Shown here piece by piece: positions 32,701-59,758 of a DNA stretch of 64,000 bases. Origin of the DNA: Mytilus trossulus. Taxonomy: Eukaryota. How positions within the stretch are numbered: the first letter of the stretch is position 1; each line of letters begins with the position of its first letter. A program made the position numbers and the translations under genes. The notes below the pieces were generated by a model that made no database searches, had not been told where the DNA came from, and saw nothing but the letters and a program-made list of their open reading frames with translations. Location of the stretch: contig NC_086376.1 of assembly GCF_036588685.1 (NCBI RefSeq), positions 87,523,630 through 87,587,629 of the forward strand, in the 5' to 3' direction.

Positions 32701-35700
32701 AATAATATTCAAAATAATAGCCAAAAAAAACCGGTATAATTTCCATAAAATTACAAATTCAGGGGCATCAACCCAACAACTGGTTGTCCGATTCGTCTGA
32801 AAACTTCAGGGCAGATGTATCTTTATCTGATAAACAATTTTACCCCTGTGTCAGATTTGCTCTAAATGCTTTGGTTTCAGAGTTATAAGCTCAAATCTAC
32901 ATTTTACCCCTATGTTCTATTTTTAGCCATGGCGGCCATCTTGGTTGGTTGGCAAGGTCACGCCACACATATTTTAAACTAGATACCCCAATAACGATTG
33001 TGGCCAAGTTTGGTTTAATTTGTCTCAGTAGTTTGAGAGCAGATGATTTTTGGTAAAAGGTAACAACAACAGACGACGACGACAGACGCCAACAAAATGA
33101 CGCAAAGTGATGAGAAAAGCTCTCTTGGCCCTTCGGGCCAGGTGAGCTAAAAAATCTCATATGCCTCACATCTCATAATATGGCAGTACAGTTTGTGGTG
33201 TCTAACTTCTGAATTCTGAAATTTTACTGCCAAATATATGGATGAAGAAAAGCAACAAAGGAACTATAAAATTAAGAATAGAAATGGGGAGTATGTCAAA
33301 GAGACAACAAACCGACCAAAGAGCATGTATTGGCCAAAAGCCACCAATGAATCTTTAAGACATTAAAAAAATCCTGCACCAGGAGGTGGGCTTCAGCAGA
33401 GCCCCATATAAAAAAAATAGAACTAATTCAGTGAAAATGAACGTCATACTAAAGGAGGTCTCATTGGGGGTTCCGATCCCTGATCCCACTTACTGTTTTG
33501 TCAGATTCCTGCATCCTGCTTACACTATGTACGTAAGCAATTCTCATTTTTTTTAATTTCCCGTGTCCCACTAGACTCCATTTCCCATTTCACACCACAA
33601 TAATTTGATTTTCACTTGTCACGCTTACAATAAAATCAGCAATCCCTCGTCACGATTAGACCCTAATGAGACCCACAGTTATCTCCAAAACAATAGAATA
33701 AACTAAAATTTAAAAAAAACATACAAGACTATCAAATGACAGAGGGTCCTGACCTTGGACAGACACAAAATTGCAACAAAGTCCAGATGTTTTGTGAGGT
33801 CTCAACTTCCCCTCATACCTCTAGGCAATGTAGAATAAAGAAACCTACAGCAATATGCACAGTATTCAATGGATGGTTACTTCCCTTATTTTATGGTCTT
33901 TTTATACACATTCACTCTACATCCATTATACTATCAACAGAATATAAAGATAACTTACTTGAATCTGACCTTCACCTCTTATATAGCCTGTCATTTTATT
34001 TATCTGTGAGGACATCTCCTTAGCAACCTTAACAATAGGATTACAATCATCTTCCCATTTCTCTGCCTCGGACTGCAGGTATTTTGATGCTGCCTGTCAA
34101 AGCAATAAATCATAAGAAAATAACCAGTTTCATACTGCATTTTTTCGCTCATCAAGTGAAAAAAAAATCATAAATGAGAACATTTTAACATGAAGAAAGA
34201 GTTTGAATGCATTCCGTTACAAAGGATTTTAAAAAAGATGTACTGTGAGCTAATTTTGCCTTATTAAGTTTGATGAAAAATATTGTTGCTTATATTTAAA
34301 AGTATAACTTACGGCAAACAGGAATAGCATAAAATAAAGAGCTGAAAAAGTGTCATACAATATTTCATAACCAAATGCAGCTTGGACTTGGAGCTACCCT
34401 TTGAATTAGAATTCAAAAGGGGAAATAAAAAGCTAAACAGACACACTTTCTGTTGCATATGCCACAAATATTCTTTTAAATTTTAATATATTGAGTTTCT
34501 GTCATTTTGGTCATGATTGGCATTTCTGGCATAGGGAAAACCTAAAACTGGAAGGATCACAATTCATTTCAAGTATGGCAAATTTTAAAAATAATCTATA
34601 ACTTACTAGAACAGAAGCATTAGGTTTATAAGGAGAATCTGATGCCTTCTTTTTCCTTCCAACTTTAGAAAATTGACCAACTGCCATATTCTGTTTTTCA
34701 CTGGAAAAAATAGGTTTAATTTTTCATTTTATTGAGAAATGCAGAGTTGTTATCATGATACTAAACTTCTTCCAAGAAATTTTGGATGAATTGTGTTATA
34801 ATTGTCATCACTACATAAATTTCTGTTTTTAGTAAAAAAAATATTTACATTTTGTCAAAAATCCTAAAAATTAATGCACACACAAATTTCTTAATTTACA
34901 GTTCATGTCCTATTATGTTTAAGATTTGGTCCAATCAGCAGAAATGTAACAAAAGGAGTAGGTTCCGGTAAGGGCCGATTTTGGCCTCAAATTTCAGGTT
35001 CATCTAACGAAAGTTTTTTGACACTATTTAAACACTTAAGTGTCTATTTCAATTGATTCGATAAGTTTATGCAAAAGATTTTAACTGATTTAGTCATTAA
35101 AAATGCTCTGATGTATGCTTAAATATGACAAATCTATCAAATATGCCAAAAAACGTCACTTTTCAAATGTTTTTTTGTCAAAAATGAAAGTCCGTGTTCA
35201 TCCTCAACCTTTATATATATGTTTTGTATTATCATCAAATACAACTTACATTTCAATATTATGAATGAACACGAATGCGGCCACTTCCATTTTAGACAGA
35301 AACCTTCTAAAAATTAACCTAAATGATAGAATTTTGAAGATTTCAGTAATTTAGCATGACTTAATGATGGTAGAACACGATATGTGTGCCTTGTATTGTC
35401 AAAAACAGCCCATATTTATGTAGCAGAAGCATTTGACTTTCCAAAACATAGCTTGAAGATTACATTTTCACAATTTAGTAAAACTGCTATATTTTGGGGC
35501 CAAAAAGGGGGTCTTACTGAACCTACTCCTTAAATATGTATACATTAATAGCTAAATTACACAGGATAGGTAAAAATGTGATAAAATAAGGTTGAATGAT
35601 TATAAGTTAAATACAGTCAGTAATGTTACCTTTAGACATTTATATTTGATGTATTTTTGTATGCTTGTTAATTCAAAGAGACTTCTGTCATATTTATTAT

Positions 35701-38700
35701 TTTATCCAAATATTAAACATCTGATGATATCAGATAGTAATATCTACATTTTCACAGCAATAATTTGCCAGATATACATTGTAGTATCATTAAGACAGCA
35801 ATTTCAAAATTTAAACATGATTGCCAATATAAACCTTGTAACACAGAGAAGTTCTTCATGTACTGTTCTAAATCCTCCATGTTTGTTGTCATTCTCCTCA
35901 ACTGATTGGATTGAAGGCTCTAATGTGTCAGTATGTGTACATTCTTCAGGTGTTTTAACACCTAAAACTTTATTCAAGTCTGTGAAATGTAAAGAAGATA
36001 AGTAACAAAGGGTATATGACAGCTTTATATTAAGAAATAATTCATGGCAGCTGTAGATTTGTTTTCATTAAACCATGGGTCGGGCATTTATATTCGATTA
36101 TTTTACCCTGAGCCTTAGCAAGGGGTAAAATACAAATATAAATGCCCAACCAATGGTTAAATGAAAACAAATCTAAGGCTGCAATGAATTATTTCGATTC
36201 TAATAGGACAAATTTCGGTAATTTTGTTTACCATGAAAGCCCTATACATACAATATTGTTTTTGGCTGTTCCATTTACCAAATTTTGATAATATAAGTAA
36301 TATTATATAATTCATTGATAAATTTTTTAATAGCATTTTTCACTTATATGTTTTCTTCCAATGTAATTTTATTCGTTCTGAGGCATATAAGAAGCTTTAA
36401 AACGCCGGGTATTTACATTTGATTTTTTGTGTACGGAAACATACTTGTGACATCCTCTTTTTTCATTGCCATGCCAAGACAATAACATCATTTTGCCGAA
36501 TTTTCGTTTTATGAAATTTTACCAGGAAAAGTAATTTGTAAATCTACTAATTTGTTTATTTTGCTGTAGAATAGACAAAAATATATTGTATTTGAATCTT
36601 GGCCTATGTAAACTAGGGGTTTTAATGTCGAAAATTGAGAATATCTGGTAGTATGAATAAGTTTGTTGTAACTCAGAACAGCCATATTACTGTATTTGCG
36701 CTAAAGGTAGATATTTATAGATTATTACATGGCATTTTCCATATGGCCCTGGTATCAGCCCTAGACTCCCATATCAAGCCAGAGGGCTTGATATGGGTCG
36801 TGGGCTGATATTACGGACCATATGGAAAATGACATGTAATAATCTATTTATCACATATTTTCAAGCAAGAGAAAGAAAAAAATAGCATACACCAAATTAT
36901 GTTTAATATTTCATCACAAATTCAAAAAGACATTTAATGAAAAAAAAATCAAAATATGTATCACCATGCACCATGAGTTAAAAAAAAAAGTTCGTATCAC
37001 AGTACGTAAGCAACGTTTTGTGATAAGATTCTGAAATAATTAACAATAAATATATTTATTCTAAGAATTGCAAATATTAAACGACTTAAAGTGTTACATT
37101 ACCAATGTTAAATATGCTTTATAGGAAGAATACCATATCGCTACTCATTCCAGTGTGGCGTCAAATTTTGACATCTAAATTCTTTATGACATCAAAATTT
37201 TACAAAACTTTTGTGATTTTCACTATTGATATTTACTTATTTCTACTACAGCAGATTCGTAAATTTCTAAATTTCTTTTCATTGTGTTCTCATTTTTAAT
37301 TTTTTGTATGAATTTACATGCATCGTCATTTGACACAGGCACTTGTCTCCAAAAAAAAATCCTATACACCTTAATGTTATATTAAGGTATATATAGGGAA
37401 AAAAAATTTGAGACAAGTGCCTGTGTCATTTGATCTGAGAGAAAACTCTCCTGGTCGTTTTGCTGCTTTGGCTGACAACTTGTTTACAAATTAATTTTGA
37501 TTGACAGGTTTACCGGAAGTTAAACTCGGGGGCTTGATATGGATTTCGAAGGCTGATATCGATCTCGGCCCCGAGGGCTGATAACCAACCTTGACTTCCG
37601 GCTATTATTGGCCATGCAAAAACGTACATATCAGTATAAAATATGTGATAAATTGTGATTATACTGGTTGACGATAATAGGTCATCATATTATAATTCAA
37701 ATTTCCATATGTGTATTAAAATGTCTGTGTGTTTTACTTTAAAATTATTTACTGGCGCGAAAAAAAATTACTCTTTAAAAATATTTAGGTTATTGCTGTA
37801 TGACATCAATATGTTATTTGTACATGTCCTATGGCATTTCAGAGATAGTTCAGTTAATACCCAATAGCGTAAATACAACTATACAAGACTCTGGAGATAA
37901 TTTAGATAATAACTATCATTACTTTTAACTAATCCTGGCTTTAAATCTTTCATCTGTTGTATACACACTAAAAGTTGACGAACTTTAGCTGCCCATGAAA
38001 CTTTCTGTTTTGTGAATTCTTCCATTGTACTTGATAAATCGCCATCTTCTACAATAATATAAAAATAGGTAAAGCACAGTGGTTGAAATAATTTAACCAC
38101 TTGTCTTAATATATTCTGTATTTTTTTTTCAAATCAAGGTTCTTTTATAAAAGGTTGTTGAATACCTGACAAGTAAAAATTAATATGTTAAAAGCTGGAA
38201 TAACCAAAAAGATTTAACTAATTATATATATAGTCTTACTGGCATATTTTTTTCAGAGATGTTTCATTTTATCAATTCATTTCTTTTTGTAGATTGAGGA
38301 AAATCCTATTTTCATGGATATTTGATTTTGTGGGTTGCTGAAGTCAGAATGTTCTTAAGTCTTTAAATAAATAGCTTGGTTCACCTATATCCTGGATATC
38401 CATGAACATTAGTATTCTAAGAATAATTATTCATACAATATACAGAAAAGGCTCCTGTTTTTCACCTACCAGTTAATTTTTTGACAATATCAATAAGCTG
38501 AGGAGATATACCAGTTACTTCATCTAAACACTTTCTAACAGCTGATCGCTTGTCAAGTTCTGTAGACAGCTGGATACCTTGTAAAGTTTTCTGTCGTAAA
38601 CTCATCAAACTTTCACTGAATTTACTGAGAGACAACTGAAACTCTGACATGCACATTTGTTTTTCTGCATCTACAAAAAATTTTCAAAGAAAGTGTTATG

Positions 38701-41700
38701 AAAAGAACATTTAAAAATATAAAAAAAAGTCAATCATTCAAAATACAATCAAAGTGCTTGTAAGTATTGAATGATAAAGATTGCATTAATTTATCAGTGG
38801 GAAATAAAATTAATAAATATCGCATTGAATTAAGCATTGGTTGTGGTTGATACAACTACAATTTTGGACAATGGGAGACAACTCCAATTTTTAAAGATTG
38901 CTTTTATAATGACATTGTTTATATTTTTAGAACAGATGTCAGATGCATGCACCTTGCATAAGTTATGTAATTTTTCTTGATAGGTGTAGCTTTACTTTGT
39001 AATTGGAATATCTGAGCATACATTACATTTATAAGTTTCTGGAAATGTTCATGGATAAGATGTATAGAATGTTATGATCAATGCACTATATTTTGTGTAT
39101 CAAAAAAGGTAGTGATAAGCCTTAGAAGATTTAGATATCAAGTCAGTCCCATAAGGTTTTGATTGTATTCCATGCAATCTTTACCTAAAAATGGAAAAAA
39201 CATTAATTTGTCACTGCTAATATTTTTTTTGTGATTGTAGGAATTTTTCAATAAGTTGTATTGAGTTTATTAGGAAAAGTTGCAGTACCAAAAAAAGCAA
39301 TGGCAAAGTCCATGCTTTGGTTAGGAACAACTAAATAATTATTCAAAATAAAAAAAAAAAAAAAAGATGCACAGCAGCATTATATGATTAAGAAGACATT
39401 TAAAAATAGTTCACTCAGAAAGAGTTGCAGATACAATATTGGTATTTTCAAAATTATGCTATGGCAAAGTCTGTGTTTTGGTATTAAAGGAAAACCCCTA
39501 AAAAAAAATTATTCATATCAAAAGTATAATTACCTGTTTTAGCTGTCCTAACTTCCACAGCGCTATCTGACAGTTTATTTAACAATGCTGTATACATTAA
39601 TGTCTGCTCTTGTAATATATCCATACATTTTATACTCTGAAAATAGAAACACTTATTTTTGACATTCCTTTTAGTGGATGTTAACACCATAAACATAAAA
39701 TTTTGCAAAATTAGTAACTACATTCATATATCAAACATTTTTAAAATACTTTTAGATCATAAAAATATCTACATATATCTAATTTTTCTGTACATATTAC
39801 CATTGCACACATTAATGGTTTTCATTTTAGAGTAAATTCCTTTCACACCGCCTATCCTGACAAACTTCACTTGATATACTGTATGTGTTTTACTCATAAC
39901 TTAAGGCCCTACACTGACCTATCTTTGTTTACTTCTATGGCAATTGGTCTCTTTTGGAGAGTTTTCTCATTGGCAATCATACCACATATTTTTTTTTATA
40001 TTGACACCAGATTTTTAATATAACCTATAAATTACTATTATCCTAACTGGGAAGTATCTTTATTGAATCAACCTGGTTTGGACTAACCTTAACAATCCAC
40101 TGTGCAGAAAGTAGACCAAGTCTACAACATATGTATGTCACGGTTATCTTATCCACTTCTCTCTTTTTCCTGGAGGAAGTGGATTTCATACTGTCATATA
40201 ATCCATCTAGATCTAAACAAAGGGATGTTGCTAATTCAGAAACACTGTCATTTCTGAAATAATAAAGTCATATCCATGTAGCTGTTGTTTATTTAGATAA
40301 ATTGACCAGTTGGAGAAATCATATCTACAACTAACTGAATCCACTGAAAGAGATTACCAGAAACAAAAAGTTCCTATTAAAAAGAGGTGAGATTCAAGGT
40401 ATGGTCAGGGAAATATCAATCAAATTTAAAAAAAAAACCATGTCCATGTTACAACTTTACATTATCAAAGAATAAATCATAAAGCTATGACATTAAAATC
40501 AATGATGAACTTACCCAAGACATGCACTGTGTAAGAGATTCCTAATCTGACTATTCTGATGCAGTATATGTTACTTACCCAAGACATGCACTGTGTAAGA
40601 GATTCCTGATCTGACTATTCTGATGCAGTATATGTTACTTACCCAAGACATGCACTGTGTAAGAAATTCCTGATCTGACTATTCTGATGCAGTACATGTT
40701 ACTTACCCAAGACATGCACTGTGTAAGAGATTCCTAATCTGACTATTCTGATGCAGTATATGTTACTTACCCAAGACATGCACTGTGTAAGAGATTCCTA
40801 ATCTGACTATTCTGATGCAGTACATGTTACTTACCCAAGACATGCACTGTGTAAGAGATTCCTGATCTGACTATTCTGATGCAGTATATGTTACTTACCC
40901 AAGACATGCACTGTGTAAGAGATTCCTGATCTGACTATTCTGATGCAGTATATGCTACTTACCCAAGACATGCACTGTGTAAGAGATTCCTAATCTGACT
41001 ATTCTGATGCAGTACATGTTACTTACCCAAGACATGCACTGTGTAAGAGATTCCTGATCTGACTATTCTGATGCAGTATATGTTACTTACCCAAGACATG
41101 CACTGTGTAGGAGATTCCTGATCTGACTATTCTGATGCAGTATATGTTACTTACCCAAGACATGCACTGTGTAAGAGATTCCTAATCTTACCATTCTGAT
41201 GCAGTATATGTTACTTACCCAAGACATGCACTGTGTAGGAGATTCCTGATCTGACTATTCTGATGCAGTATATGTTACTTACCCAAGACATGCACTGTGT
41301 AAGAGATTCCTGATCTGACTATTCTGATGCAGTACATGTTACTTACCCAAGACATGCACTGTGTAAGAGATTCCTGATCTGACTATTCTGATGCAGTATA
41401 TGTTACTTACCCAAGACATGCACTGTGTAGGAGATTCCTAATCTGACTATTCTGATGCAGTATATGTTACTTACCCAAGACATGCACTGTGTAGGAGATT
41501 CCTAATCTGACTATTCTGATGCAGTATATGTTACTTACCCAAGACATGCACTGTGTAAGAGATTCCTGATCTGACTATTCTGATGCAGTATATGTTACTT
41601 ACCCAAGACATGCACTGTGTAAGAGATTCCTGATCTGACTATTCTGATGCAGTATATGTTACTTACCCAAGACATGCACTGTGTAGGAGATTCCTGATCT

Positions 41701-44700
41701 GACTATTCTGATGCAGTATATGTTACTTACCCAAGACATGCACTGTGTAAGAGATTCCTAATCTTACCATTCTGATGCAGTATATGTTACTTACCCAAGA
41801 CATGCACTGTGTAGGAGATTCCTGATCTGACTATTCTGATGCAGTATATGTTACTTACCCAAGACATGCACTGTGTAAGAGATTCCTGATCTGACTATTC
41901 TGATGCAGTATATGTTACTTACCCAAGACATGCACTGTGTAAGAGATTCCTAATCTGACTATTCTGATGCAGTACATGTTACTTACCCAAGACATGCACT
42001 GTGTAAGAGATTCCTGATCTGACTATTCTGATGCAGTATATGTTACTTACCCAAGACATGCACTGTGTAAGAGATTCCTGATCTGACTATTCTGATGCAG
42101 TACATGTTACTTACCCAAGACATGCACTGTGTAAGAGATTCCTAATCTTACCATTCTGATGCAGTATATGTTACTTACCCAAGACATGCACTGTGTAGGA
42201 GATTCCTGATCTGACTATTCTGATGCAGTATATGTTACTTACCCAAGACATGCACTGTGTAAGAGATTCCTGATCTGACTATTCTGATGCAGTATATGTT
42301 ACTTACCCAAGACATGCACTGTGTAAGAGATTCCTAATCTGACTATTCTGATGCAGTACATGTTACTTACCCAAGACATGCACTGTGTAAGAGATTCCTG
42401 ATCTGACTATTCTGATGCAGTATATGTTACTTACCCAAGACATGCACTGTGTAAGAGATTCCTGATCTGACTATTCTGATGCAGTATATGCTACTTACCC
42501 AAGACATGCACTGTGTAAGAGATTCCTAATCTGACTATTCTGATGCAGTACATGTTACTTACCCAAGACATGCACTGTGTAAGAGATTCCTGATCTGACT
42601 ATTCTGATGCAGTATATGTTACTTACCCAAGACATGCACTGTGTAGGAGATTCCTGATCTGACTATTCTGATGCAGTATATGTTACTTACCCAAGACATG
42701 CACTGTGTAAGAGATTCCTAATCTTACCATTCTGATGCAGTATATGTTACTTACCCAAGACATGCACTGTGTAGGAGATTCCTGATCTGACTATTCTGAT
42801 GCAGTATATGTTACTTACCCAAGACATGCACTGTGTAAGAGATTCCTGATCTGACTATTCTGATGCAGTACATGTTACTTACCCAAGACATGCACTGTGT
42901 AAGAGATTCCTGATCTGACTATTCTGATGCAGTATATGTTACTTACCCAAGACATGCACTGTGTAGGAGATTCCTAATCTGACTATTCTGATGCAGTATA
43001 TGTTACTTACCCAAGACATGCACTGTGTAGGAGATTCCTAATCTGACTATTCTGATGCAGTATATGTTACTTACCCAAGACATGCACTGTGTAAGAGATT
43101 CCTGATCTGACTATTCTGATGCAGTATATGTTACTTACCCAAGACATGCACTGTGTAAGAGATTCCTGATCTGACTATTCTGATGCAGTATATGTTACTT
43201 ACCCAAGACATGCACTGTGTAGGAGATTCCTGATCTGACTATTCTGATGCAGTATATGTTACTTACCCAAGACATGCACTGTGTAAGAGATTCCTAATCT
43301 TACCATTCTGATGCAGTATATGTTACTTACCCAAGACATGCACTGTGTAGGAGATTCCTGATCTGACTATTCTGATGCAGTATATGTTACTTACCCAAGA
43401 CATGCACTGTGTAAGAGATTCCTGATCTGACTATTCTGATGCAGTACATGTTACTTACCCAAGACATGCACTGTGTAAGAGATTCCTGATCTGACTATTC
43501 TGATGCAGTATATGTTACTTACCCAAGACATGCACTGTGTAAGAGATTCCTGATCTGACTATTCTGATGCAGTACATGTTACTTACCCAAGACATGCACA
43601 GTGCAAGAGATTCCTAATCTGACTATTCTGATGCAGTACATGTTACTTACCCAAGACATGCACTGTGTAAGAGATTCCTGATCTGACTATTCTGATGCAG
43701 TACATATTACTTACCCAAGACATGCACTGTGTAAGAGATTCCTAATCTGACTATTCTGATGCAGTATATGTTACTTACCCAAGACATGCACTGTGTAAGA
43801 GATTCCTGATCTGACTATTCTGATGCAGTACATGTTACTTACCCAAGACATGCACTGTGCAAGAGATTCCTAATCTGACTATTCTGATGCAGTATATGTT
43901 ACTTACCCAAGACATGCACTGTGTAAGAGATTCCTAATCTGACTATTCTGATGCAGTATATGTTCAAACAGTTGTGAGTCTTTCAATGGAATGCTGTCAT
44001 TTGGCCACACTCTTCTGTCACAACCTTTAGTGTAAAGGTCAGAGGTCAAACCTTCAAGGTCATCCAGAACACAAAATATTCTTACAGCCCATTCTCTGCA
44101 AAGTTGTTCAAGTTGACATTTATCTTGATGAGTAGCTGCAATAAAGAAAGCTACATTAACATATATGTAATGTGGTTTCATAACTCTACAACAGTTTAAT
44201 ACAGGGTGATATCTTATATTTTTATAACTTTGACAATTATTCATCATAAGTTTTTTTTTTTTTTTGGTTTCAAACATTTTAAAAGTGAAATTGTGAAATA
44301 ACATTTTTTATAAATAATCATTTTTTGTTCATTTTTAACAAAATAAGCTCAAAAACATTGATGATGCACCATTGGCTTGCAAGTAGATAATTCAACTCAT
44401 TTGAATCTGTATTCATGGGAACTTCAATTTAAAATTGTTTCTATAGGACTTTTGGTAATTTGGATAGATGTTTTTTTTTTAAATATGTTATAAATAAAAT
44501 AACAGATTTTGAGTCTTATCAGTGAACATATATTTGACAGCTAATGCCCCTTAAAAAACAGGTCATCGGACTTCCGAGATAAACATGAGTGCTGACAACT
44601 CATAAAATTACTATGGTTACAAAAAAATAGTACACTATAAGCCATAGTAATATTATCTAATGTTAATAACAGGACAATGACAATCTTTAGGACTTACATG

Positions 44701-47700
44701 ATTTATATATGACACCTGATGTTGTTACTATGGTAACTGTAATGTTATCTAACTCGTTACTATTCTCTTGCAGACGTTGACATCTTTCTTCCCCAATATC
44801 TTTATCACCAATACTTTCTGTTAAATCCATTAGTTCTGATATACTTGTGGTGTGTTGTTTTAATGAGTCAATCTACATAATTAAATCACACGAAATAGAT
44901 ATAGGAATATGTGGTACGTGTGCCAATAAGACAACTCTCCATTCAAGTAACAATTTATAAAAGTAAACCATTATAGGTCAAGGTTTGGCCATTTTATTAA
45001 GATAACCAGAAAGGCCATTATATCATCTTTTAAAATCATTAGAGTCATTATTTGGACCACAGAGTCTTGTGCATATGATATATCAGTACTCTCAAAAAGT
45101 TCAATTTACTAGGATCTTTTTATAAAATGTCAAAGTTTTGATCAGAACTTTAATTGGACACCATTATATTGGATGATTTTACCATGTTTAAAAGGACATT
45201 ATAAAATGAACATAATTGTTGTACTATTGCCAGAACATATTCATTTTGTCAGATGGATAAAGGCATGAAGCCCACTAAAATACTGTTGGAATCTGTTAAA
45301 AGTCATCAGTTGGTATCTATGCATGACAGGAAATAGTTCTAACCTGTTGTTTCATTAAGCGCTGATCAGATGACGTGGTTGACTGATAAACAGGGTCGGA
45401 AATGTCCTTCCATTGGTCCACTGTAACATCTATAAATACTCTTATCTTCTCAATCTTCAATGGAAAGCAGTGGTATTAGACGAATGCAATGTGTATACTC
45501 AATAAATGTAAAACTTACACTTTATTAGATGGCTTGATTTTTAAGATCAGAAAGTGCATTTTTGTTATATTTTTTCTAATTGTGAGAGTAACATGAGGCA
45601 GATGTTACCGCAAAAAAGTTTAAGGTCTGTTTTAAATGTCTCCTATCTTTTATTAATCAAACCCAAATTTTCGTGAAATTGTATGTTTTATGATAAATAA
45701 TTGAAAAACAAGTGTATTGCATTCGTCAAAAAGCAAACTATCAGAGATTCTTTTTGTATCTTAGTCTTTTTATCTAGATTTATGCTGCAATGACAATAAT
45801 ATGATTATTTGTAGATTCCAATTTTCTGAATCATCAGTCATTTTGTGTTATAAATCATAATTTCAGACTCCCAAATCAAAAGTCAATGGAAAATAAGCAT
45901 CTTTGGTTGTTCAATTTTGAGTACTTATATCTACCATATAAAGAAAATGGCAGAATTTGCAGTTAAAGTAATGTCAAAAACCTTTTTCTTGTTAGCTAAC
46001 ATTCAAATGTAAGCTAAGGGTGTCATTTAAGTACAAAGCGCTGTTCATTTTGATATAAAATCATCATGTTCTAGTCTTAAATATGGTTGTATGATTTCCC
46101 TCTGAACATTATTCTATCTATCTTTTAAGGACCTACCTTGACTTCCCATAGTTGACTTAGAGAACAAATATCAGAAATATCATCTTGATCACCCATTGCT
46201 ACATATTTTAATTTCTCTGTCAGATCTGCAACTAATTCATCTACCTCACTGCACAAGGAATGTATATTTCTGTTAACAAATAAAATTTTAAATAAGAATA
46301 AAATTATTTATTATTCCAATCATGGGCCCATGATGGGCAACATGACATGTATACACACAAAACAATGCCTTGTGATTTGTAACAGAAAAACTTATTTTTA
46401 TGTTGAAATGAAATATTAAAAGTTTTAAGATTTTATCAAGTCAGATTAAGAGCTACATATATTTCTTCATTTAAAATGAGTCATGTACATTAAATTCCTG
46501 TCAGGACCATAAAATCATTACAATTATCATTGTTATTACATATATAAATTATCATTTCATCTAACATTTATTTATACAAGAAAGTATTTACATAGAAATG
46601 TTGAAAATACACAAATATTACTAAAATTTCGGAAACTTTTCGTTATAGGAAGTATTTTAGTTAATTTTTGCTAACTTTTTTAAATGTTAAAACATAACTC
46701 ATACAATAGGCTTTACTCAGTTTTGATTCTTGTACTTTTGTTAATTTAAGCTCATTGCTGGTTTTTTTCCGAAACATGTAAATGGTCCAGCAAAATGGAA
46801 TCAATTCACAGAAATAAACAAAAAATAATTCACAAACATGGCTATTTGTCTCATGGACACATACCACATCTTCTTATATCTATAAATGGTCAGAACAAAA
46901 CCATACCTTCTTTTGGCAGTATCAGAGTGTACCAAAAGACATTCAGCACTATCTACTATATGATTACTCCAGCCTAACAAATCTCCGCTCACAGACTTTA
47001 TAACATGCTTATCTCCCTTGGTTACAGCACCAGTTATCTTTTCCTTTATATGAGAGGTAGTGGTTGAATCTACAGAATCAAAAGTGCATTCATATAACAG
47101 GTTACAGAAGAATTGTAACTGAAAAGATCAATAAATTATAAAATTATAAGTCAATCTAAATTTATGAAAATGAGGTAAAATGCAAACGACATACATGCCA
47201 CATAGAAGCGTCAGACCATATAAACATTAAGGAACAAAATATAGATAATTTAGATCTACTGGTTAACCATGTTAAATTTGAAAAAAATGTACAAATAATC
47301 TATATCTTTGTCATCTATAACATGCAGTAAACATACCCAGTATATAATGCTTTCAGAAACATTTTTTACAATTGCATAAAAATACATGGGCTCAAAGTGT
47401 AGTGATACCATATTTACCTTGGATTCATTTATTTTCATATGCAGACTTAAGTGGATACTTTTATTTCATGAATAGTAATGAATACACAGTTTCAAAATAT
47501 TCAACTATAATTTTACTCCATACCTTGACTAGACTTTAACCTTGATGTGCGTTGATATGATTCTACAGGCTTCCTGCTCTGTTGATGGGATTCCTGTGGC
47601 TTAACTTTTGTTTGATGATATGATTCCTGAGATGAGACAGATTGCAATGATTCAGTACTTTGCTGAAATGCACTTCTTTGTAAGGGGACTACTTTTTGTA

Positions 47701-50700
47701 GCGTAGACATAGATGAGTGTGTGAGAAAGTCCTCCTTACTGCAGATATCCTCCTGTAGGAATCTGTTGTCAAGTGGTAGGGATTTCAAAGCACCAGTTGA
47801 TGAAAATTTAATGTGACTAGAACTGGATGTTTTCCTCCTTTTCTCTGCTTCTATAATGTGAAGGAAACATTTTAAATTAAAACTGTGGTTTTCTTTCTTA
47901 CATATTATTCTAAAAGGCATTGCTTGCAAATAAATTAGTGTTCTGTTAGAAGACATTAAAGTGGGTTTCATTGGGGTCTAAGCGTGACGCGGGATTGCCA
48001 ATTTTTTGTAAGCGGGACACGTGAAAGTCAAATTAATGTGTCGTGAAAACCGGAAATGAGGTCTTGCGGGACCCGGGAAATGACAAAAAAATATGATTAT
48101 TTATACGTACATAGTGTAAGCGGGATACGGGAATCTGATTAAACAGTAAGCGCGATCCGGGCTCGGAACCCCCAAATGAGACCCCCATTAAAGTTGAAGT
48201 TTTCCTTCTTTCGGCAGCTTCTGTAATGTATTTTTTTTAATAAGAAAACATATTTATTCTAAATATGATTTTAAATGGTATTGCCTAATGAATGAATGAG
48301 AGTTCAGTTTAAGATAATTTTTCACATCCATTCCTTGCAATAGTTTCTATTTGTATATATAAAATCTATACACAAGCATACACTTTTGAATATTATAGTT
48401 AGCAATTTTTTTCAATCTTGTGGCTGTAAAATCTTTGATTGTTTGTCTTTAATCATAAAATATGATGTTTAATGCTTTTCATCAGAAATTAAAAGCTAAA
48501 AAGTTTAAAAGTATAAAAACCTGCAAATCTGAGATTCCGTCTCTCTGGACTAAGTATGCTTGGCTGATTATCTGCATTTAAACCATTTTTCACTTTTCTT
48601 ACACATTCTAACAAATGTGATAATCTTCTAAGTAATGATTCTACAGCTGAATTACTGGTAACATCAGAGTATACATGAGTTGATCCTGCTCTTATACCAG
48701 TTATTGCTGTAAGTTGAAAGAAAAGAACTCAAGATTATAAATATTTTATTAAACAATGGCTTTCACAAAAAATCTAACATTGTAAAATACTAACGTTGCA
48801 AGTTTGCTCTCGTCTTAAGTGTTAAAAAATGGAGACATTTGTCAATATCAATTGAACAGTTGGTCCTAAATGTGACAATAGGTAAAAAGTTACATAAACG
48901 AAAGTCAAAGATGCAATTGTATAAAAGCTGATATGATGGACTTATAAATTCTAGAAAAAACACTTATTTATGTATGGCCTTTTGATCAAACCAGACTTCA
49001 AGCTTGATGACAAAAGGTGGAAGTAAAATGATCATGTGGTAGGGTTAAAACAATATAGAGAAAAATGGATTGATTAACATAATAATTACAGTCAATACAT
49101 CTCAAAATTTATCTTTCATTACGATTTTCTGTAATTTAAGAAGAAGAAAAAAACGCTGCCAATTCACTTATTATTATGGATTATATTTTACTTGGATAAT
49201 AATTATTATTTTTATTTTCATAGACATTAGATTTTATGGTTTTGCCAAAGTCTGTATACCAGCCTTTAGAAAATGTGTACATTATTGACCATTTTAATTT
49301 GTTTTTAACCTATACCCACAAAATATATGGAAATTGAATCCACTGTATATAAATATGAACAAACCTTTATGGAGGCTTTTAACATAAACCAATAATCCAT
49401 TACGATATAGTGGATCATCATGGCTGTCGACAATTCTCTCTCCAACCTGACACACACGTCGTGATCTACCCACCAGAGATTTTATTGCACTATTTATACC
49501 TTCTACATCACAGGTCATTACAAATCCTCTACAGACACCTATATCTTCTTCAATTCTTTTCTCTGAATTAAATAAAGGGAACTGATAATATATATGCACA
49601 TGCTGACAAAATATATCATAATTGGTTGACAATATATAGAATACTCATCTATGAAAACCACCTACATGACCTATTGATCTTCAAATACTGTAGGTTTCAG
49701 AAAAAATCAGATTTTTTAATATCAATGCAAAAATAGCCAAAAAAAACAACTTGAAATTCAAAATTTGATAGCATTAAATGTATGCAAATTTTTATGAAAT
49801 TTTAAAAATCAATTTCACAATTTTGTCTATTGTTCAACCATCCCAATAATAAATTATATAAAATTCCTTAACTTACAGTATGCAGGGGTTAATTTTTTAA
49901 GTTGAAATTAAATATACCAATCTTTCACCATTTTAAGACAAATTATATTATTACTAACCAGAGACACCCATAAATATCTGAGGATCTGTCATTTCATCCA
50001 AGATTTGCATCAAAGTATTCAACTCAAATGACCATTCTTTCATCAGAAGCTTGACATGACGGACGGCCATTTTGTCTAACTGGTCCCTTGCCATACATAG
50101 AGCTGCTGGAACAATGTCAGGATCCAGTCTTTCAAGATGACATACACATGTTCTTATTACTCTCACACCTATTAGATATTTTCATATTATATATGTATAA
50201 GAAACTGTTAAACTGTAAAGCCATTTGATCAAAACAAAATCATGCACTGAAAGGTCCAATTAATGTTACCATGTGATTGTCCAATTTTGAACATCAAATA
50301 AATGTCTAGCCAAAACAGGGGCTAGACTGTATTCATGTAAATATAAATTTACACTTTCCGTTGAAAGATATCCATCAAGTAATTTTGCAACAGTACAAAT
50401 TTGTTATTATACTGCCATATTCAACTTATTTCTTTATTGTTGTTTTTTTTAAATTTTCAATCACATTGTGTATAAGTTTATAAACATTTGGTGGAGGCAA
50501 ACTCAAATTAGAGAATGGGATCCAATTTTAAGGCATATAGACAGATATATAGACAATGGATAACCTTAGTGTTTATTAAAAGTGTTGTTGCATTTAATGA
50601 TGAATTAATAAATACAGAAAAAAATCCACTCTAAGCAGAAAGTGTTAACTGATGAACTGAATTGACAGAAGAGTTGACCACTCTGTATAGATAATATACA

Positions 50701-53700
50701 TATATATTCTTTAATGCGGTTTACACTAAACTAATAAATCTTACGTGTGGCATCAGTTGAGCTAGCTGCAGCAAAGCTGGCAACTTGACACATTTTATCT
50801 GCATGTTCTTCAAACTCTGTTATCAAAATGTCATTTTCTCCTATAGACTGATCCTGTTGAATGATAAAATATACATTCCAATTAATACCAAATTAAAAAA
50901 CAAAACAAATAAAATCTGGAGACTGTCAAATTGATCCAAGACTGTTTTACAAATAATAAGACATTACTTTCAGCCAAGTCTCACCATAAGACTTTAGACA
51001 AAGTTCAGAATCGGGCACTATGTATCATCACAGGTGCTATGAAATCAACACCAATAAAAAGTATGGAGGATATAACAAACATACCCCCAATAGGAAAGAG
51101 AAGGGAGTGCAAAGCCATGATACAGGCCGGCAAATATCAGTGTTCACAAGACCACCCAATGAATACTAGACTAAAACAACTCTCATCAGGCAGACTAAAA
51201 AGATCCAGCTTTACATTAGAGACAAGAGCATTGCAAAGAAAACACCATGAAGCCCTACCAAAATATATAGAACACATAGTTTTCACAAAGAATAACACCC
51301 CATGTGAAGAAAAACTTGGAAATGTCACCATCCAGACCTCAGTTCCGCTCATTACCACCAGAGATGAACAGACTAGTAATGTAAAGAAAATACTTACAAT
51401 GAGTATGCTTGAAGAACAGTATCCTTCAGAAACTTGGGTAAGAGTATATACAGATGGGTCAGCCACAAATGCCACAACAAATGGAGGGGCTGGTATATAC
51501 ATTAAGTACCCCAATGGAGATCAACAATCAGAAGCAATACCAACAGGCCTACATTATTCAAACTACAAAGCTGAAGAAGAAGCCATTACTAATGCTGCAC
51601 ACTCCATCAAAAACAAAATCGATGATACATCTCAAGTAGTATTCCTGACTGATGCCCTCCCTGTTCTACAAGCTTTGAAGAACGACAAGCTGCCTCAACT
51701 CCAACAAGCTTTATACAACATCAAAAGTCTGACAACAGTAATTCAGTGGATCCCTTCACACTGTGGAGTTTGGACTAATGAATAAGCCGACAGATTAGCA
51801 AAGTATGGTGCTGAACAACAACAGGAAGAAAATCCAGTCTGCTTTACAGAGATGAAGACTATCATAAAATCTCTGTTCAACACTCCACAGCAACAAGATA
51901 GTTACCACCAGCTAACAAGATCTGAACAAACCACCATATTTAGACTGAGGACAGGACCAACATCTACACAAAGTCATGAAAGTTGTTCCATCTCCTATGT
52001 GTCCTTGTGGAGAAGCAGACCAGGATACAGCACACCTCTTCCAGTCATGCAATTTCCATCAGGCATTGAGAGATAAGATATGGCACTCAGTAACATCACT
52101 TGAAGAGAAGCTATACGTACCAGTGGATGCCCTACAGAAGACCACCAGATTTGTTGAGGAGACTGGTATTCAAGTGTAAAGGCGAACGATAAGAAGAAGA
52201 ATAAGACATTTATCAATTATGCTTGCTTTAAAAGATCTGAATTCTTTTAAATAAAATGACACATCAGATTATTTTACCTCGAAATAACATGTCAACAAAT
52301 TTTATCGTAAAGTTAACAGAACATTTTCTCTTCTTGATGTCCCAACTAAATAAAAAAAGCTCATCTTTTACTATTAATTTTTCTATTCTAGTAATATATA
52401 TTTCGAGCATAGGGAATACAAAATCCTATTAAGAGTATCTTTCATGAGTTTCTTGACCTATTAACAATTTCCATTACTCCAAGAACGATGTTATCAAATG
52501 TAGTAATGTATAAATAGCAGAGGAGTATATGAAAAGAAAAATGGTGTTGTACCTGTTTAGGATACATAGCTGCCTTTATCAATCTTTCTATAGGTTCTGT
52601 TGTTTCTTTGAATATATCTACTATCAAGTGAAGTAAACTCATGTTGACGTTCTTCTCCAGTTCACAAAACTCATCAATCAAGGATTCACAACACTCATCA
52701 TAATCCTCTCTGTACAAAATAAAATCTCATTATACATTGTAGTGCTGTGTATTCATCATTATTCTGGATATACCATTTTTTATCTATGAGTAGGTATATA
52801 TGTGATCTTTGATGGTTATATAGGCTTGAAAATATAATTTGGCAAATCACAAAAAATATAGGTTCTCATTCTTTCAATCCACAAAAAATGAATGAATCCA
52901 CAGTAATCAAAATTTAGGTAACTATTAAACAAGAATGTCTCCAAAGTACATGGATGCCCCACTCGCACTATCATTTTCCATGTTCAATGGACCGAGAAAT
53001 TGGATAAAAAATATAATTAGGCATTAAAATTAGAAAGATAATATCATAGGGAACATGTGTACTAAGTTTCAAGTTGATTGGACTTCAACTTCATTAAAAA
53101 CTACCTTGACCAAAAACTTTAACCTGAAGTGGGACAGACGGACGAACGAACAGATGGTCGAACGAACATACAGATGAACGAACAGACACACAGACCAGAA
53201 AACATAATGCCCCTCTACTATTGTAGGTGGGGCATAAAAACAATTACCTTTCACAATGAGGGAAATTTATTGTAAGCAATAATGTGATAAAAACAAGAGT
53301 GTCCATGCTGAAGTGGCTTCTTGCTTTACTGACCATGACTGAATTTTATGTTGAAATCTTTCGGATTAAAATTAGAAACAAATAAAACAGAATATATTTT
53401 GACACATCTTAAAATATCTTTTGATTGTATCTAATTTTCCCTTTCTGTTACTTATATCTTTTAAATGTATTGTTTGTGACACATGTTCTTTTTTCAGTTT
53501 CATTATATATATACTGACCTCATTCTTTGTATATCTGTTTTCTCTTTGATAGAAATGGACAAGGCTAATACACGACCTTTAAGTTGTAAAATCTACAAAT
53601 AATTATATATTTATCACATTAAAAACTGGTTTTAATGGCACTCCTGCATTTCTTGTTGGCAAACATAATATAAATACATGGATATTCTTATACATTAGTT

Positions 53701-56700
53701 TAATTTTTCAATGTCTACTTTTGTTTTTTGTATTTATTAAAATATCAATCTCCATATCACAATTGTTGTATAAATCCTCAATTGGGTTGAATGAGACATT
53801 CCACAATACTTTTCAACTTTAAAATTGGTTTGGTATTTTTAACTTTTTTGTTTTGAGCTTCACTGTTGAGTCTTTTGTTGACAAAAACCTGCATCTGGAT
53901 TTAAAATTATAAACCTGGTTTCTTTGATGTTTTTTTTCTTACCATCAACTCAGGATTCAGATTTCATATAAAACCAAAAAGAATGCTATGTTTGATGTTG
54001 CACTAAGCATACAATCAGTGCACTATTATAAATTATTATGTCTACTCACCCTTTGACAATTAATGATTATAAGATTTCTATATGTATCTGTACAGAGATG
54101 TGCCACTAACATACTATGTCTGATAATTCCTTCTGTCCAACTTTCTACATCTATATCTAAATCTTCTCGGTTTTCTGTAGACAGGGCCTCTAATATCTAA
54201 AATTGTTTGCATTAATAACATATTTTTTATAACACCCTTGATAACATATATATCCCACAGTTCTTGAAAAGAAGTGGCTTGAAAGTTTTGAAGACCAAAA
54301 TTTTGGCATTTTGCAAATAGAAATAAAAGTGAGTAGCAGCAGATTTTCATGGATGACCTGAGAATATTTTTGAGAGCCATGCTATCCTATTTGTATGCTC
54401 TTATATAGATATACATTTAAAATCATAACATTGAAATACACACCTGACACTAGGGTGAAAATAGGTTGAATATTGATATTTGATGTAAAGTGTGATCACT
54501 TCAGCACATAATGCATGAAGACTTACATAAAACTTTAAAAAAGAAATACAGCAATAAAAGACTTGTTCCTATGATATAAGGATGTATACGCAAAAATTAA
54601 TAAAAAAGTTGTGGCAAATATTGTTGTAATATGTGTATGATGAGTATTTCATATTTACTGTGACACATATACAGAATAGTGAAAAATATTGTCTAAATAA
54701 GTGTATGAGGTGTATGTCATATTTATTGTGCCACATATACAAAATAATGACAATAATTGATTATTTATGTTCAAGAACCATTTTTAAAATAAAATGTCTT
54801 TACTTAAAACATACCTGATCAATTTTAGAAACAAAGTATCCAGGTTCCTCTACATCTAAATAATCTTCTTCAGTAAATTTGTTTTCTATGGCCTCAACTA
54901 TATCTCTAACAGCAGACAAAACTTGGTTTATCACATAGGACTTGCTCACCTGTCAAAAAGTTAAAGTCTAATAATAATCAAGATTAAAAATGTTAAAACT
55001 AGGTAAAGTGGATTCTATTAAGGATTTCAGATTTTAAGTACAGTATTTTGTGTTTCCGTTAGAGATGTTTGTTCTCATCATTTAAATCTTCAGTTCAGGA
55101 TCTAAAATAAAGGTTATGATTACTTTTGGATCTGCTTATTCATGCAAATATACTGAACCTAACCGTGTAATACTACTTACATGAGCCTGTGCATTACTAG
55201 GATATTTTATACAACTTTGTAAAGCTACACTTATTGATGGAATGGATTTCTTCAGTAGATTGAGAGCTGTAATTATTTTCTCCCTTTGTCTATCTTGACA
55301 CAGATCTTTTTGTCTCTTGTTTGCTAAAGATGTTAAAATGGAAGTAGTATCTGTGAAACTCTGAAAGTAAAACCAAGATGTGCTTAAGATGTTAGAATGG
55401 AAGTTGTATCTGTGAAACTCTGAAAGTAAAACCAAGATGTGCTAAAGATGTTAGAATGGAAGTAGTATCTGTGAAACTCTGAAAGTAAAACCAAGATGTG
55501 CTAAAGATGTCAGAATGGAAGTTGTATCTGTGAAACTCTGAAAGTAAAACCAAGATGTGCTAAAGATGTCAGAATGGAAGTTGTATCTGTGAAACTCTGA
55601 AAGTAAAACCAAGATGTGCTAAAGATGTTAGAATGGAAGTAGTATCTGTGAAACTCTGAAAGTAAAACCAAGATGTGCTAAAGATGTCAGAATGGAAGTT
55701 GTATCTGTGAAACTCTGAAAGTAAAACCAAGATGTGCTAAAGATGTCAGAATGGAAGTTGTATCTGTGAAACTCTGAAAGTAAAACCAAGATGTGCTAAA
55801 GATGTCAGAATGGAAGTTGTATCTGTGAAACTCTGAAAGTAAAACCAAGATGTGCTAAAGATGTTAGAATGGAAGTAGTATCTGTGAAACTCTGAAAGTA
55901 AAACCAAGATGTGCTAAAGATGTCAGAATGGAAGTTGTATCTGTGAAACTCTGAAAGTAAAACCAAGATGTGCTAAAGATGTCAGAATGGAAGTTGTATC
56001 TGTGAAACTCTGAAAGTAAAACCAAGATGTGCTAAAGATGTTAGAATGGAAGTAGTATCTGACCAAGATGTGCTAAAGATGTCAGAATGGAAGTTGTATC
56101 TGTGAAACTCTGAAAGTAAAACCAAGATGTGCTAAAGATGTTAGAATGGAAGTAGTATCTGTGAAACTCTGAAAGTAAAACCAAGATGTGCTAAAGATGT
56201 TAGAATGGAAGTAGTATCTGTGAAACTCTGAAAGTAAAACCAAGATGTGCTAAAGATTTTAGAATGGAAGTAGTATCTGTGAAACTCTGAAAGTAAAACC
56301 AAGATGTGCTAAAGATGTTAGAATGGAAGTTGTATCTGTGAAACTCTGAAAGTAAAACCAAGATGTGCTTAAGATGTTAGAATGGAAGTTGTATCTGTGA
56401 AACTCTGAAAGTAAAACCACTGTCTTATTAGTATGGATTAAAAATAATAAGGAAAGGAAGTTTGCTAAAATTGCTAAGTTTATTTATTCCTGCATTCTGC
56501 TTTTGTATAACAAGCCCTTCTGTCATGTAGTGTTTTAGCTACTAATTTTAACATTGTCATAAAGCAAGAGGTTTGGCATGTCATTAAACCAGGTTCAACC
56601 CACCATTTTTTTTAATGTCCTGTACCCTATCAGGAATATGGCAGTTTTTATCAAATACTTTGTTTCTAAATGTGTTGGTGTTTGTTTTGTTGCACCTCTG

Positions 56701-59700
56701 TGTTCCTGTTGTTTTTCTCTTATAGTTATTAAATGTGTTTCCATCAGTTTTGGTTGATGACCCCAATTTGTTTGTTTCTCTATTGATTTATGAATTTTGA
56801 ACACCAGTATACTACTGTTGCATTTATCAATAATTCGAAATCCTTTTCAACATGTGTCTGGTTTATTAATATGATTACCTTAAATCTAGATAACAGATCA
56901 GTCATATTATTAACATGACTTAGGAGTCCAACAGTTTCTGAGACAGTATGGGCTGCAGCCAGAATTCTCCTAACTTCATAATCATCAGAGACAAGTAACA
57001 CCTACAAAATAGTAAACAATATTGTTTTCACATAATATGCATACAGTTTAGGGTTCTTTATTTGTTCCAAGTAGATAAGACATTGTTAATTTATCTTCTT
57101 GCATTTATAATAAGAAGTACTAATACATGTATATATATTTACTTTTTTATTTATCTATTAAATGTGAAGTTGGCCAAAAAAAATCAAAGTTTTCAAAATA
57201 TTATGCTTCTGAGGTCCTAATATGAACTCTGTTAATCGACCAGAAAGTCATACAAAGACAAAAAAAAATCAAATCTAGTATCTTTATTGTTCATTTCAAA
57301 ATAATCAGGAAAGCAACTAGCATTTCATGGACTACATCTTACTTTCATTGTTCCTTGAAGAACATTCTTTGAGGCAGTTATAACTCGACTCTTATTTTCT
57401 TTACTAGCTGATGCCGTAACTCTCTGTGATGCTATATATAAATCACTGCTAGATAAATCTAAGATCTCACAAGCACTCTCCATCTGTCTCTTCAGCTCCT
57501 GTTATAACATATAAGTGAATATATATAAATCACTGCTAGATAAATCTAAGATCTCACAAGCACTCTCCATCTGTCTCTTCAGCTCCTGTTATAACATATA
57601 AGTAAATATATATAAATCACTGCTAGATAAATCTAAGATCTCACAAGCACTCTCCATCTGTCTTTTCAGCTCCTGTTATAACATATAAGTAAATGTTCAG
57701 TGGTTGTCATATTTATTTTTTTTCGCAACTGTTTGTTATAAATTAGGCCATTAGTTTTCTCAATTGAATTGATTCATATTTTCATGTGGGTAACCATACA
57801 GTTTGATTTTTTCACGTTATTGAAGGCCTTACAGTTGCCTATAATTTCCTACATCCACTTCATTTGAACTTTGGTGGATAGTTGTCTTGTTGGCTATATA
57901 CCACATTCATGACCATAATGACATCTTCTAATTTTTTTTACAAAATTTATAAACTCAAATTCTGATTTTGTCTCTGAATTTAGCTTCAGTCAGCGCTACT
58001 AAATCTTTAGTTTTCTGTGTAATGTTTTGTGGACTGTTGTTTGTTGTTATTTTTCTTTTTGAATATCTTGCATGTGTCTTTGTATCTAATCAATGGGTTT
58101 TGATTACAATTTTGTAATGATTGAAATTTGTATTTAAAATAATGGTTTTAAAACTAATATTTGCCAAAATAAATTTAAACTAAATTGATTTTCCAGTCCA
58201 ATTCTAGCTGGTTCTTTTTACAATTAAATACAGTCTGAAAGGAGAAAAAAATTATAGAAATACATAAACCAACTGGTCATAAGATATTAGATTTTTGCTA
58301 AGGTTTGATTATCTCTTGCATGTCGCATGTCTTAGTGTCTAGTATATTTAACCATAAGTTACAAGAAATGTTTGTTGCCTACATCATCTGCAGTCTTGTT
58401 AGCTCTTTCTTTTCCTAGTGTCACAAGACGTTCTGCAGCCTGCATAACCATTTCAGCACAGGGCCCCATATCTGTTTGAATGCCATCTGAATGGTCAAGA
58501 ATGATCAACAACGAAATCTGAAAAAGAAAATATTTTTGAAATGATTAGTGATATATACAAAAAAAATGATTTATATTAAAGTATCAAAATAAAAATATAA
58601 GTGAACCAACATCTTGTGTTGTGATTGTGCGGTAGGGTAAAAACGAGTGGATACCGCTAGGTATTCACAGTCATCTTGAAAAAAATGAATATGTCGACAA
58701 TAAAGACAACAACACTCATGTTTTTACTGTGTAGTATCTATTTATTGGGTCTACATGTTTCGCCTAATCGATAGGCATCATCAGGACAATTGTACAAAGA
58801 AATATGACAGTGAAGTATGAATTTAGCGGTTAGCGGTTTTAACCGGAAGTACAAGTTAAACAATGGTGGTTATGGTGACGTTATATAAATAGATAGTGAA
58901 AGTGAAAGTAAATTACAATAGAAAATATATAAACATGATAAATAGAAATGTTCGTGTTTTCTTGAATGGTAACAGCATCTCTTGTGGTTGACATCTATCC
59001 TGTTCTGTGTAGTTAATCTCATGAGAGGTCTTTGGTGGTATTGCACGTTGTAGTTATCTAAATAAATAATCATGTCAGTGAATTCCAAATTGGACAACAC
59101 CTCACTGTTCACTCCGTACAGTCAACTGGCTTCGCTCTGGGACCCTTGAGTTACTGCTTCCAATTGCGTCGGAAATGGTGTGAAGTGTATGATCGTCGCA
59201 CATTTTGGAAATTAAAAAAAGTGGTAAATCCGTAAATATTTAATTATGAGTTGTGTTAATGATTTTACTTTTGATGTGGTTTGATGTTGAATCTGTACAT
59301 GCTGTAAGAGCTTCCAGCAGGTTTCTTCTTTCTTAACCGGTGGTAAAGTATTGTAATAGTTGAGACTCTGTTAAATCTTTATGTTAATTTTGCGTAGTGT
59401 CATAAATTCAGCTAGGTGGTCATGATTTTTTAATAGTGTTATCAGCGGTTGTAGCGATTTCTTCTTCTCTTGCTCCTTCTCTTCTTGGACAGTGTGGAAT
59501 CTTGGTCATTTTCAGGAAAAGATAAGGAATCTTGGTATTGGTCAGTAGCTGATCTCTTGCTGGATCCAGAACTTTTTCAAGGGTCGATTTGACTTGTACC
59601 CAAAACTTTAAGCTGAGGCAGGGCAGGGCAGACAAATTCTTGTCAAATCAGCATCTGGTCAAATTGACATCCTACATGTATGTAGTCATTTTGGCACCCA

Positions 59701-59724
59701 TGTCAAATACATGTATGTAATTGT

Positions 59725-59758
<34 letters not shown>

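What the first reader, a model, noticed from the sequence alone, without database searches (positions are those of the whole stretch)
40509..57694. Variants between array copies are largely synonymous in the exon reading frame, although the copies are intronic
Seen: in the 64-mer the variants include ATT/ATC (Ile), TTA/CTA/TTG (Leu) and conservative ATA/GTA (Ile/Val). In the 59-mer they are ACT/ACA (Thr) and TTA/CTA/CTG (Leu). In the 87-mer it is AAG/AAA (Lys). Disruptive changes exist but are fewer (SQ>GK in five units, TTA>TAA in two units, some singletons). Inference: the arrays may store coding alleles and exchange them with the functional exon edge by gene conversion or unequal crossover, so that array variation is filtered by protein-level selection. 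The number of independent variants is small.
Basis: partly seen in the sequence, partly recalled or inferred. Interest (0 to 1): 0.7.

Follow-up and report, generated by a model that had tools for sequence, protein, structure and literature searches.

The report
Intron repeats carry protein-selection imprint
In a mussel, repeats copied from exon edges into introns carry about twice as many silent changes among their common variants as chance predicts, likely because the working exon keeps feeding its alleles into the repeats; this gene alone shows the effect only weakly.

Summary
The three arrays are real: 54 x 64 nt (donor), about 19 x 59 nt and 3 x 87 nt (acceptors), built from exon edges of a Mytilus vinculin/alpha-catenin-like gene. 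They are 'mirage' minisatellites, a known kind that this scan already noted at many other places in this genome. The variants named exist, but 'largely synonymous' overstates it: 8 of 16 independent changes are silent (4.5 expected, P about 0.04, post hoc). I ran the proposed genome-wide test on 134 other junction arrays. The silent share rises with copy frequency: singletons 117/475 (1.1x expected), shared at 25-90% 82/177 (1.8x, CI 1.5-2.1), fixed against the exon 28/50 (2.3x). A pre-set replication set agreed (30/59, 1.8x). Wrong frames show no excess in these classes, and removing in-frame arrays does not change it. So array variation is partly filtered by protein-level selection. The likely cause is passive: the exon copy takes part in repeat turnover and seeds coding alleles into the array. 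A functional allele store is not supported: most variants change residues, stops are not depleted, and no array residue appears in 11 Mytilus proteins. Direction of exchange and population exon alleles remain untested.

The parts
17518..60336 (-). Host gene: vinculin/alpha-catenin-like, about 1508 aa, about 31 coding exons
   Evidence: tblastn of P0001 and relatives; Pfam Vinculin hits on 4 exons, below the curated cut-off
43907..44135 (-). Exon whose last 58 nt form the functional copy of the 64-mer
   Evidence: 4 of 4 RNA-like contig sets cover exactly this span and continue into neighbouring exons
40509..43964 (-). 64-nt donor array, 54 copies (58 exon nt plus GTAAGT); functional copy 43901-43964, 53 intronic copies; 10 variant sites, 4 silent
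55181..55360 (-). Exon whose first 39 nt form the functional copy of the 59-mer
55322..56419 (-). 59-nt acceptor array, 18 intronic copies plus the exon copy; 5 variant sites, 3 silent; all 8 CTG copies also carry ACA
57343..57498 (-). Exon whose first 66 nt form the functional copy of the 87-mer
57433..57694 (-). 87-nt acceptor array, 3 copies; one silent exon-part variant, one intron-part variant; in-frame TAA in the intron part
   Evidence: the stop is read from the sequence

Best explanation
These are intronic minisatellites copied from exon edges, and their common variants are enriched for silent changes, likely because the working exon copy takes part in repeat turnover and seeds its selected alleles into the array. 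Shown: the arrays, use of the exon-adjacent donor at the 64-mer, and a silent excess that grows with copy frequency across 134 arrays. Inferred: slippage, unequal crossover or conversion copies the exon edge (of this chromosome, a homologue or a paralogue) into the array; array-born mutations are neutral and stay mostly rare, while exon-born changes start at high frequency and are mostly silent. Roughly 40% of variants at 25-90% and 60% of fixed differences would be exon-derived (from 46% and 56% silent against a null of 24-26% and 13 of 17 silent among between-species differences in one exon). It is a by-product, not a function.
For: Combined silent observed/expected: singletons 117/105, shared <25% 68/48.5, shared 25-90% 82/45.6 (array-bootstrap CI 1.51-2.11), fixed 28/12.0. 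Pre-set replication (note): 43/41.2, 31/20.8, 30/16.9, 8/3.4. Pfam-confirmed frames 31/15.3. Holds without 20 in-frame-open arrays (70/39.6), and in the discovery set under a trinucleotide null (1.59x), without CpG changes, for transversions alone, and without the three strongest arrays. L091: most interior copies differ from the exon at 6 sites, all silent, with mosaic copies and no paralogue found. L192: both array copies carry two silent letters that are the exon allele of the second gene copy L193. Toy simulation: without exchange the 25-90% class stays at 0.8-1.2x; with the exon as donor and fast turnover it reaches about 1.45x and the fixed class 2.1x (1.9x and 2.4x in one run). Stops are not depleted and 32 of 103 arrays keep fixed differences from the exon, which fits outward copying better than constant overwriting of the exon.
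Against: No array variant was seen as an exon allele for this gene: the one listed difference in the array-covered exon of other mussels (43942) is not in the array, and 1 to 4 further differences per run were not listed by the tool. Two contigs likely carry the window's 59-mer exon allele, not the array's (inferred from a count). Simulated exon-to-array copying alone falls a little short of the observed 1.8x, and two-way or inward models fit as well or better. No gradient along arrays: carriers sit at mean position 0.52 for both silent and non-silent variants. Singletons read in one wrong frame show 1.21x (P 0.006), so the null is off by up to about 20%. Intron parts of units are intermediate and do not differ significantly from either class. 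Only 31 of 50 discovery arrays exceed expectation individually. 85 of 134 frames rest on my splice and codon model without a Pfam hit.
Confidence: 0.52

Rival explanations
1. Back-flow with purging is the main cause: array copies overwrite the exon edge often enough (contraction or conversion) that chromosomes whose arrays carry residue-changing variants at high frequency are selected against.
For: Simulated two-way or inward exchange at fast turnover gives 1.65-2.0x for the 25-90% class and about 3x for fixed, close to observed. Low-divergence arrays and arrays without fixed differences show the stronger excess (1.85x and 1.71x against 1.46x and 1.41x). L080 has 7 of 7 shared variants silent.
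Against: Stops are not purged more than missense changes (17 against 15.6 and 8 against 10.1 expected); a stop sits in 7 of 10 copies at L122 and 12 of 29 at L128; 32 of 103 arrays keep fixed differences from their exon.
Confidence: 0.28
2. No exchange: copies mutate neutrally after birth, fixed silent differences arise in the exon lineage, and the rest is chance or a mis-specified mutation null.
For: The window alone is borderline (8 of 16). One wrong-frame singleton control is 1.21x. No-exchange simulations give 1.3-1.5x for the fixed class and single runs up to 1.4x for the 25-90% class.
Against: The 25-90% class is 1.8x in both sets, wrong frames give 0.87x and 0.53x there, and the excess survives context nulls. 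Six linked silent differences inside L091 are not expected from array-born mutation.
Confidence: 0.1
3. The copies are sometimes translated (downstream donors or upstream acceptors used), so selection acts on them directly.
For: 20 of 134 arrays continue the exon frame without a stop for at least one unit; L080 stays open for 865 codons; their shared variants are also enriched.
Against: The excess is the same in the other 114 arrays (1.77x). In the window 64 and 59 are not multiples of three, the 87-mer has an in-frame stop, and 4 of 4 contig sets use the first donor.
Confidence: 0.06
4. The arrays are maintained as a functional store of coding alleles, like silent donor cassettes.
For: Coding-like alleles do sit in arrays (L091, L192).
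Against: The stored differences are mostly silent, so they offer little new protein; residue-changing variants behave neutrally and include stops; the covered residues are nearly invariant across 11 Mytilus proteins; arrays fall on unrelated housekeeping genes and copy number differs between duplicate genes.
Confidence: 0.04

Closest known systems
Amphioxus 'mirage' minisatellites (Adh3, globins BflGb6 and BflGb9, troponin C, PGBD5); PMC3087553 and PMC3902484, passages read
   Same: Tandem copies spanning an exon-intron boundary, at donors or acceptors, with splicing at the authentic site and concerted evolution inside the cluster.
   Different: PMC3087553 reports that cluster boundaries are excluded from homogenisation, and its text has no occurrence of 'synonymous' or 'gene conversion'. 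Here a frequency-dependent silent excess indicates that the exon copy is not fully excluded. The original Adh paper (PMC117041) was not held and may bear on this.
Human F7 intron 7 37-bp VNTR; PMC1557585, abstract read
   Same: First unit spans the exon-intron boundary, later donors are silent pseudo-sites, the most upstream donor is used.
   Different: Studied for splice-site choice; the abstract says nothing on coding-frame bias of repeat variants.
Gene conversion between functional genes and silent copies (pseudogene donors, antigenic-variation cassettes); recalled, no call
   Same: Non-expressed copies that exchange sequence with an expressed copy can show a coding-like variant pattern.
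   Different: Here the copies are 20-110 nt exon fragments in tandem inside the gene's own intron, with no sign of directed donor function or of diversifying selection.

Membership tests
Mirage / junction-spanning minisatellite | Head-to-tail units that include an exon edge and its splice signal | tested here: met
Mirage / junction-spanning minisatellite | Normal splicing at the exon-adjacent copy | tested here: met
   64-mer: 4 of 4 contig sets. 59-mer: 2 contigs stop matching just upstream of the last acceptor. Contigs drop rare isoforms.
Mirage / junction-spanning minisatellite | Turnover and concerted evolution among units | tested here: met
   12 unit types in 54 copies, exact 17-unit block repeated at distance 24
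Mirage / junction-spanning minisatellite | Length polymorphism between individuals or cells | not tested
   No DNA runs were laid; duplicate gene copies differ in copy number
Mirage / junction-spanning minisatellite | Boundary units excluded from homogenisation (as reported for BflGb6) | tested here: inconclusive
   32 of 103 arrays keep fixed differences from the exon, but the silent excess in shared variants points to exchange
Silent donor-cassette store | Silent copies hold intact, diverse amino-acid alternatives | tested here: not met
   Stops at neutral rate; no window array residue in 11 Mytilus proteins
Silent donor-cassette store | Transfer from silent copy to expressed site | not testable with these tools
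   Needs population haplotypes or pedigrees

The most novel reading that the evidence does not exclude
Exon edges and their intronic arrays exchange sequence in both directions at hundreds of mussel genes, fast enough that selection on the protein acts on untranslated repeat copies: arrays archive alleles from other haplotypes or species, can write them back into the exon, and raise the mutation load on the covered codons (about fourfold in the toy model).
Probability: 0.28. Interest if true: 0.75.

Novelty: new variant of a known kind. Interest (0 to 1): 0.55.

Why it matters
The repeat type is known, but it is usually described as inert clutter whose edge copy is left out of turnover. A replicated coding-frame bias in intronic copies shows that coding and non-coding copies share ancestry recently and repeatedly. 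It gives a way to measure exchange between an exon and its neighbouring repeat from one assembly, suggests that arrays may record earlier or foreign exon alleles in a hybridising genus, and warns that short reads from such arrays can look like plausible silent exon SNPs. If back-flow is real, these arrays are local mutators of coding sequence.

Tried and rejected
A 'ceiling' argument (one-way copying cannot exceed a silent share of 2p/(1+p); exceeded) is withdrawn: the simulation shows one-way copying passes it in high-frequency classes. An acceptor-pattern search gave 79 matches against 51 for its reversed control and few arrays, so the test set is mostly donor arrays. Entry of alleles at the far end of arrays: singletons in the farthest copy are not enriched (17 of 67 against 15.6). 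Position gradient along arrays: none. Intron part of units as a neutral yardstick: inconclusive (P 0.14 against non-silent, 0.19 against silent, 42 arrays). A metagenome scan for the 64-mer exon found nothing. No listed holder was on record as RNA; the contigs laid are spliced, which I take as RNA. An automatic exon model of the whole gene failed, so exon limits other than the three studied are tblastn estimates. Literature: 8 searches (listings only, apart from the three papers named) showed no report of silent-variant bias in junction repeats; a word search of earlier scan notes gave 0. The Adh mirage paper was not held; no supplements were read.

Full report
Setting. The window encodes on the minus strand a protein of about 1508 residues of the vinculin/alpha-catenin group (Pfam Vinculin on 4 of 20 ORFs sent; best relative a Mytilus cluster of 11 proteins; closest by tblastn the M. 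trossulus protein). Three tandem arrays overlap exon edges: 54 x 64 nt at a donor, about 19 x 59 nt and 3 x 87 nt at acceptors. RNA-like contigs of 4 of 4 runs cover exactly 43907-44135 and continue into the neighbouring exons, so the first donor is used and the other 53 copies are intronic. Two contigs cover the 59-mer exon and stop matching six bases upstream of the last acceptor.

The observation. Counted as independent substitutions in the exon frame, 4 of 10, 3 of 5 and 1 of 1 are silent: 8 of 16, against 4.5 expected when each change keeps its base type and is placed at random in the exon part of the unit (P 0.04, post hoc; the probability for the edge site 43963 was set by hand). 'Largely synonymous' holds only when weighted by copies, which are not independent (an exact 17-unit block recurs 24 units on). 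None of the residue-changing variants (I>V, SQ>GK, H>Y, L>F, S>C, T>K) is in any of 11 Mytilus proteins; the only difference among them over array-covered residues is L>Q in three records. In three runs of more distant mussels the one listed change in the array-covered exon (43942, silent) is not an array variant; 1 to 4 differences per run near contig-piece ends were not listed, so a match there is neither shown nor excluded. Of the 17 listed differences in that exon, 13 are silent.

Genome-wide test. Pattern searches for repeated splice motifs behind an acceptor (at most the first 100 rows each) gave places from which I hand-picked 200 stretches that looked like distinct loci, before seeing variants. 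Exon and frame were called from splice scores (weights recalled, approximate), an open frame and a codon model trained on the window's genes, without use of variants. Discovery: 140 loci, 114 candidates, 90 accepted (3 dropped by hand as double calls, 21 below thresholds); 34 of 105 peptides sent had a Pfam hit. Replication: 60 loci, 54 candidates, 44 accepted (5 second copies of duplicated genes and 5 below thresholds dropped); 14 of 47 peptides sent had a Pfam hit. Frequency classes were set after I had seen the discovery variant list; the replication prediction was written down first.

Result. Discovery, silent observed/expected: singletons 74/63.9 of 286, shared <25% 37/27.7 of 121, shared 25-90% 52/28.7 of 118, fixed 20/8.6 of 36. 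Replication: 43/41.2 of 189, 31/20.8 of 91, 30/16.9 of 59, 8/3.4 of 14. Combined ratios 1.11, 1.40, 1.80 (array-bootstrap CI 1.51-2.11) and 2.33 (1.87-2.86); two- and three-copy duplications 44/27.5 of 99. Read in the two wrong frames the 25-90% class gives 0.87 and 0.53. Against this, singletons in one wrong frame give 1.21 (P 0.006), so ratios up to about 1.2 are noise. The excess holds for Pfam-confirmed frames (31/15.3 of 58), without the 20 arrays that stay in frame (70/39.6 of 154), and in the discovery set with a trinucleotide null (1.59), without CpG changes, for transversions alone, and without the three strongest arrays. Overall only 339 of 1013 variants are silent, stops occur at the neutral rate, and 8 stops reach 25% or more of copies.

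Cases. At L091 most interior copies differ from the exon at six sites, all silent; two copies are mosaics with an exon-type 3' part and the last copy is exon-type; no second copy of the exon was found in the genome. At L192 both array copies carry two silent letters that are the exon allele of the other gene copy, L193 (flanks 92% alike, allele or paralogue not resolved). In the window's 59-mer all 8 CTG copies also carry ACA, giving a unit type three silent changes from the exon. L080 has 7 of 7 shared variants silent but is also an open frame of 865 codons, so it is set apart.

Mechanism. A toy Wright-Fisher model (250 chromosomes, 12 copies plus an exon slot, selection only on the exon slot, 6 seeds) gives 0.8-1.2x for the 25-90% class without exchange, up to 1.46x with the exon as donor only, up to 1.70x with the exon as recipient only, and up to 2.04x two-way; fixed class 1.3-1.5x, 2.1x, up to 3.0x and up to 3.3x. 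Exchange at fast turnover is needed; direction is not identified. The model is illustrative, with arbitrary parameters. I favour outward copying as the main cause because whole coding-like alleles sit in arrays, stops are not purged and 32 of 103 arrays keep fixed differences from their exon; back-flow with purging is the main rival. There is no positional gradient along arrays and the intron parts of units are uninformative.

Comparison. The arrays meet the tested features of amphioxus 'mirage' minisatellites (PMC3087553 and PMC3902484, passages read) and resemble the human F7 intron 7 VNTR (PMC1557585, abstract read). PMC3087553 describes boundary units as excluded from homogenisation and does not use the words synonymous or gene conversion. 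Eight literature searches found no report of a coding-frame bias in such repeats; the original Adh paper was not held. Earlier scan notes on this genome found the array class many times and, for single arrays, judged the copies unselected; single arrays have too few variants to show the effect, as the window does.

Verdict. Known repeat kind; the window's own signal is weak and overstated; the underlying idea is right at genome scale and appears unreported. It is likely a passive footprint of exchange with the exon, not an allele store.

Noticed in passing
L080 (G000:C1:8300-13300, minus): 87-nt donor array, at least 48 copies, continues the exon frame without a stop for 865 codons; all 7 shared variants are silent. 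The gene looks FAM135-like (label recalled). Candidate for translated or strongly coupled copies.
   Followed up: partly
L204, L034, L142, L162: Further donor arrays whose whole length or most of it stays in frame without a stop (for example 57 nt x 69 at L204).
   Followed up: no
L091: Beyond the last array copy lies an older, degenerate copy of the same exon edge, suggesting repeated rounds of duplication at one junction.
   Followed up: no
window 40509-43964: Higher-order structure: a run of 17 unit types recurs exactly 24 units later.
   Followed up: partly
window 55322-56419: Each 59-nt unit has about 5 extra bases between the exon part and the intron part that repeat a word a few bases upstream in the unit, as a templated insertion would.
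   Followed up: no
window 30260-31546 (+): A 429-codon exostosin GT47 reading frame lies inside an intron of the host gene on the opposite strand.
   Followed up: no
window 50913-52176 (+): Broken retroelement-like fragment with an RNase H hit inside an intron; covered by RNA-like contigs in 4 runs.
   Followed up: no
window 4353-9877 (+): Exons of a neuralized-like gene (Neuralized and RING hits) facing the host gene's 3' end.
   Followed up: no
window about 44920-44984, 47960-48190, 52927-53240: High-copy interspersed repeats that draw thousands of contigs in every run.
   Followed up: no
G000 genome-wide: Repeated donor motifs far outnumber their reversed controls (914 against 271; 64 against 3; 193 against 3; match counts, not arrays), so donor arrays are common in this genome.
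   Followed up: partly
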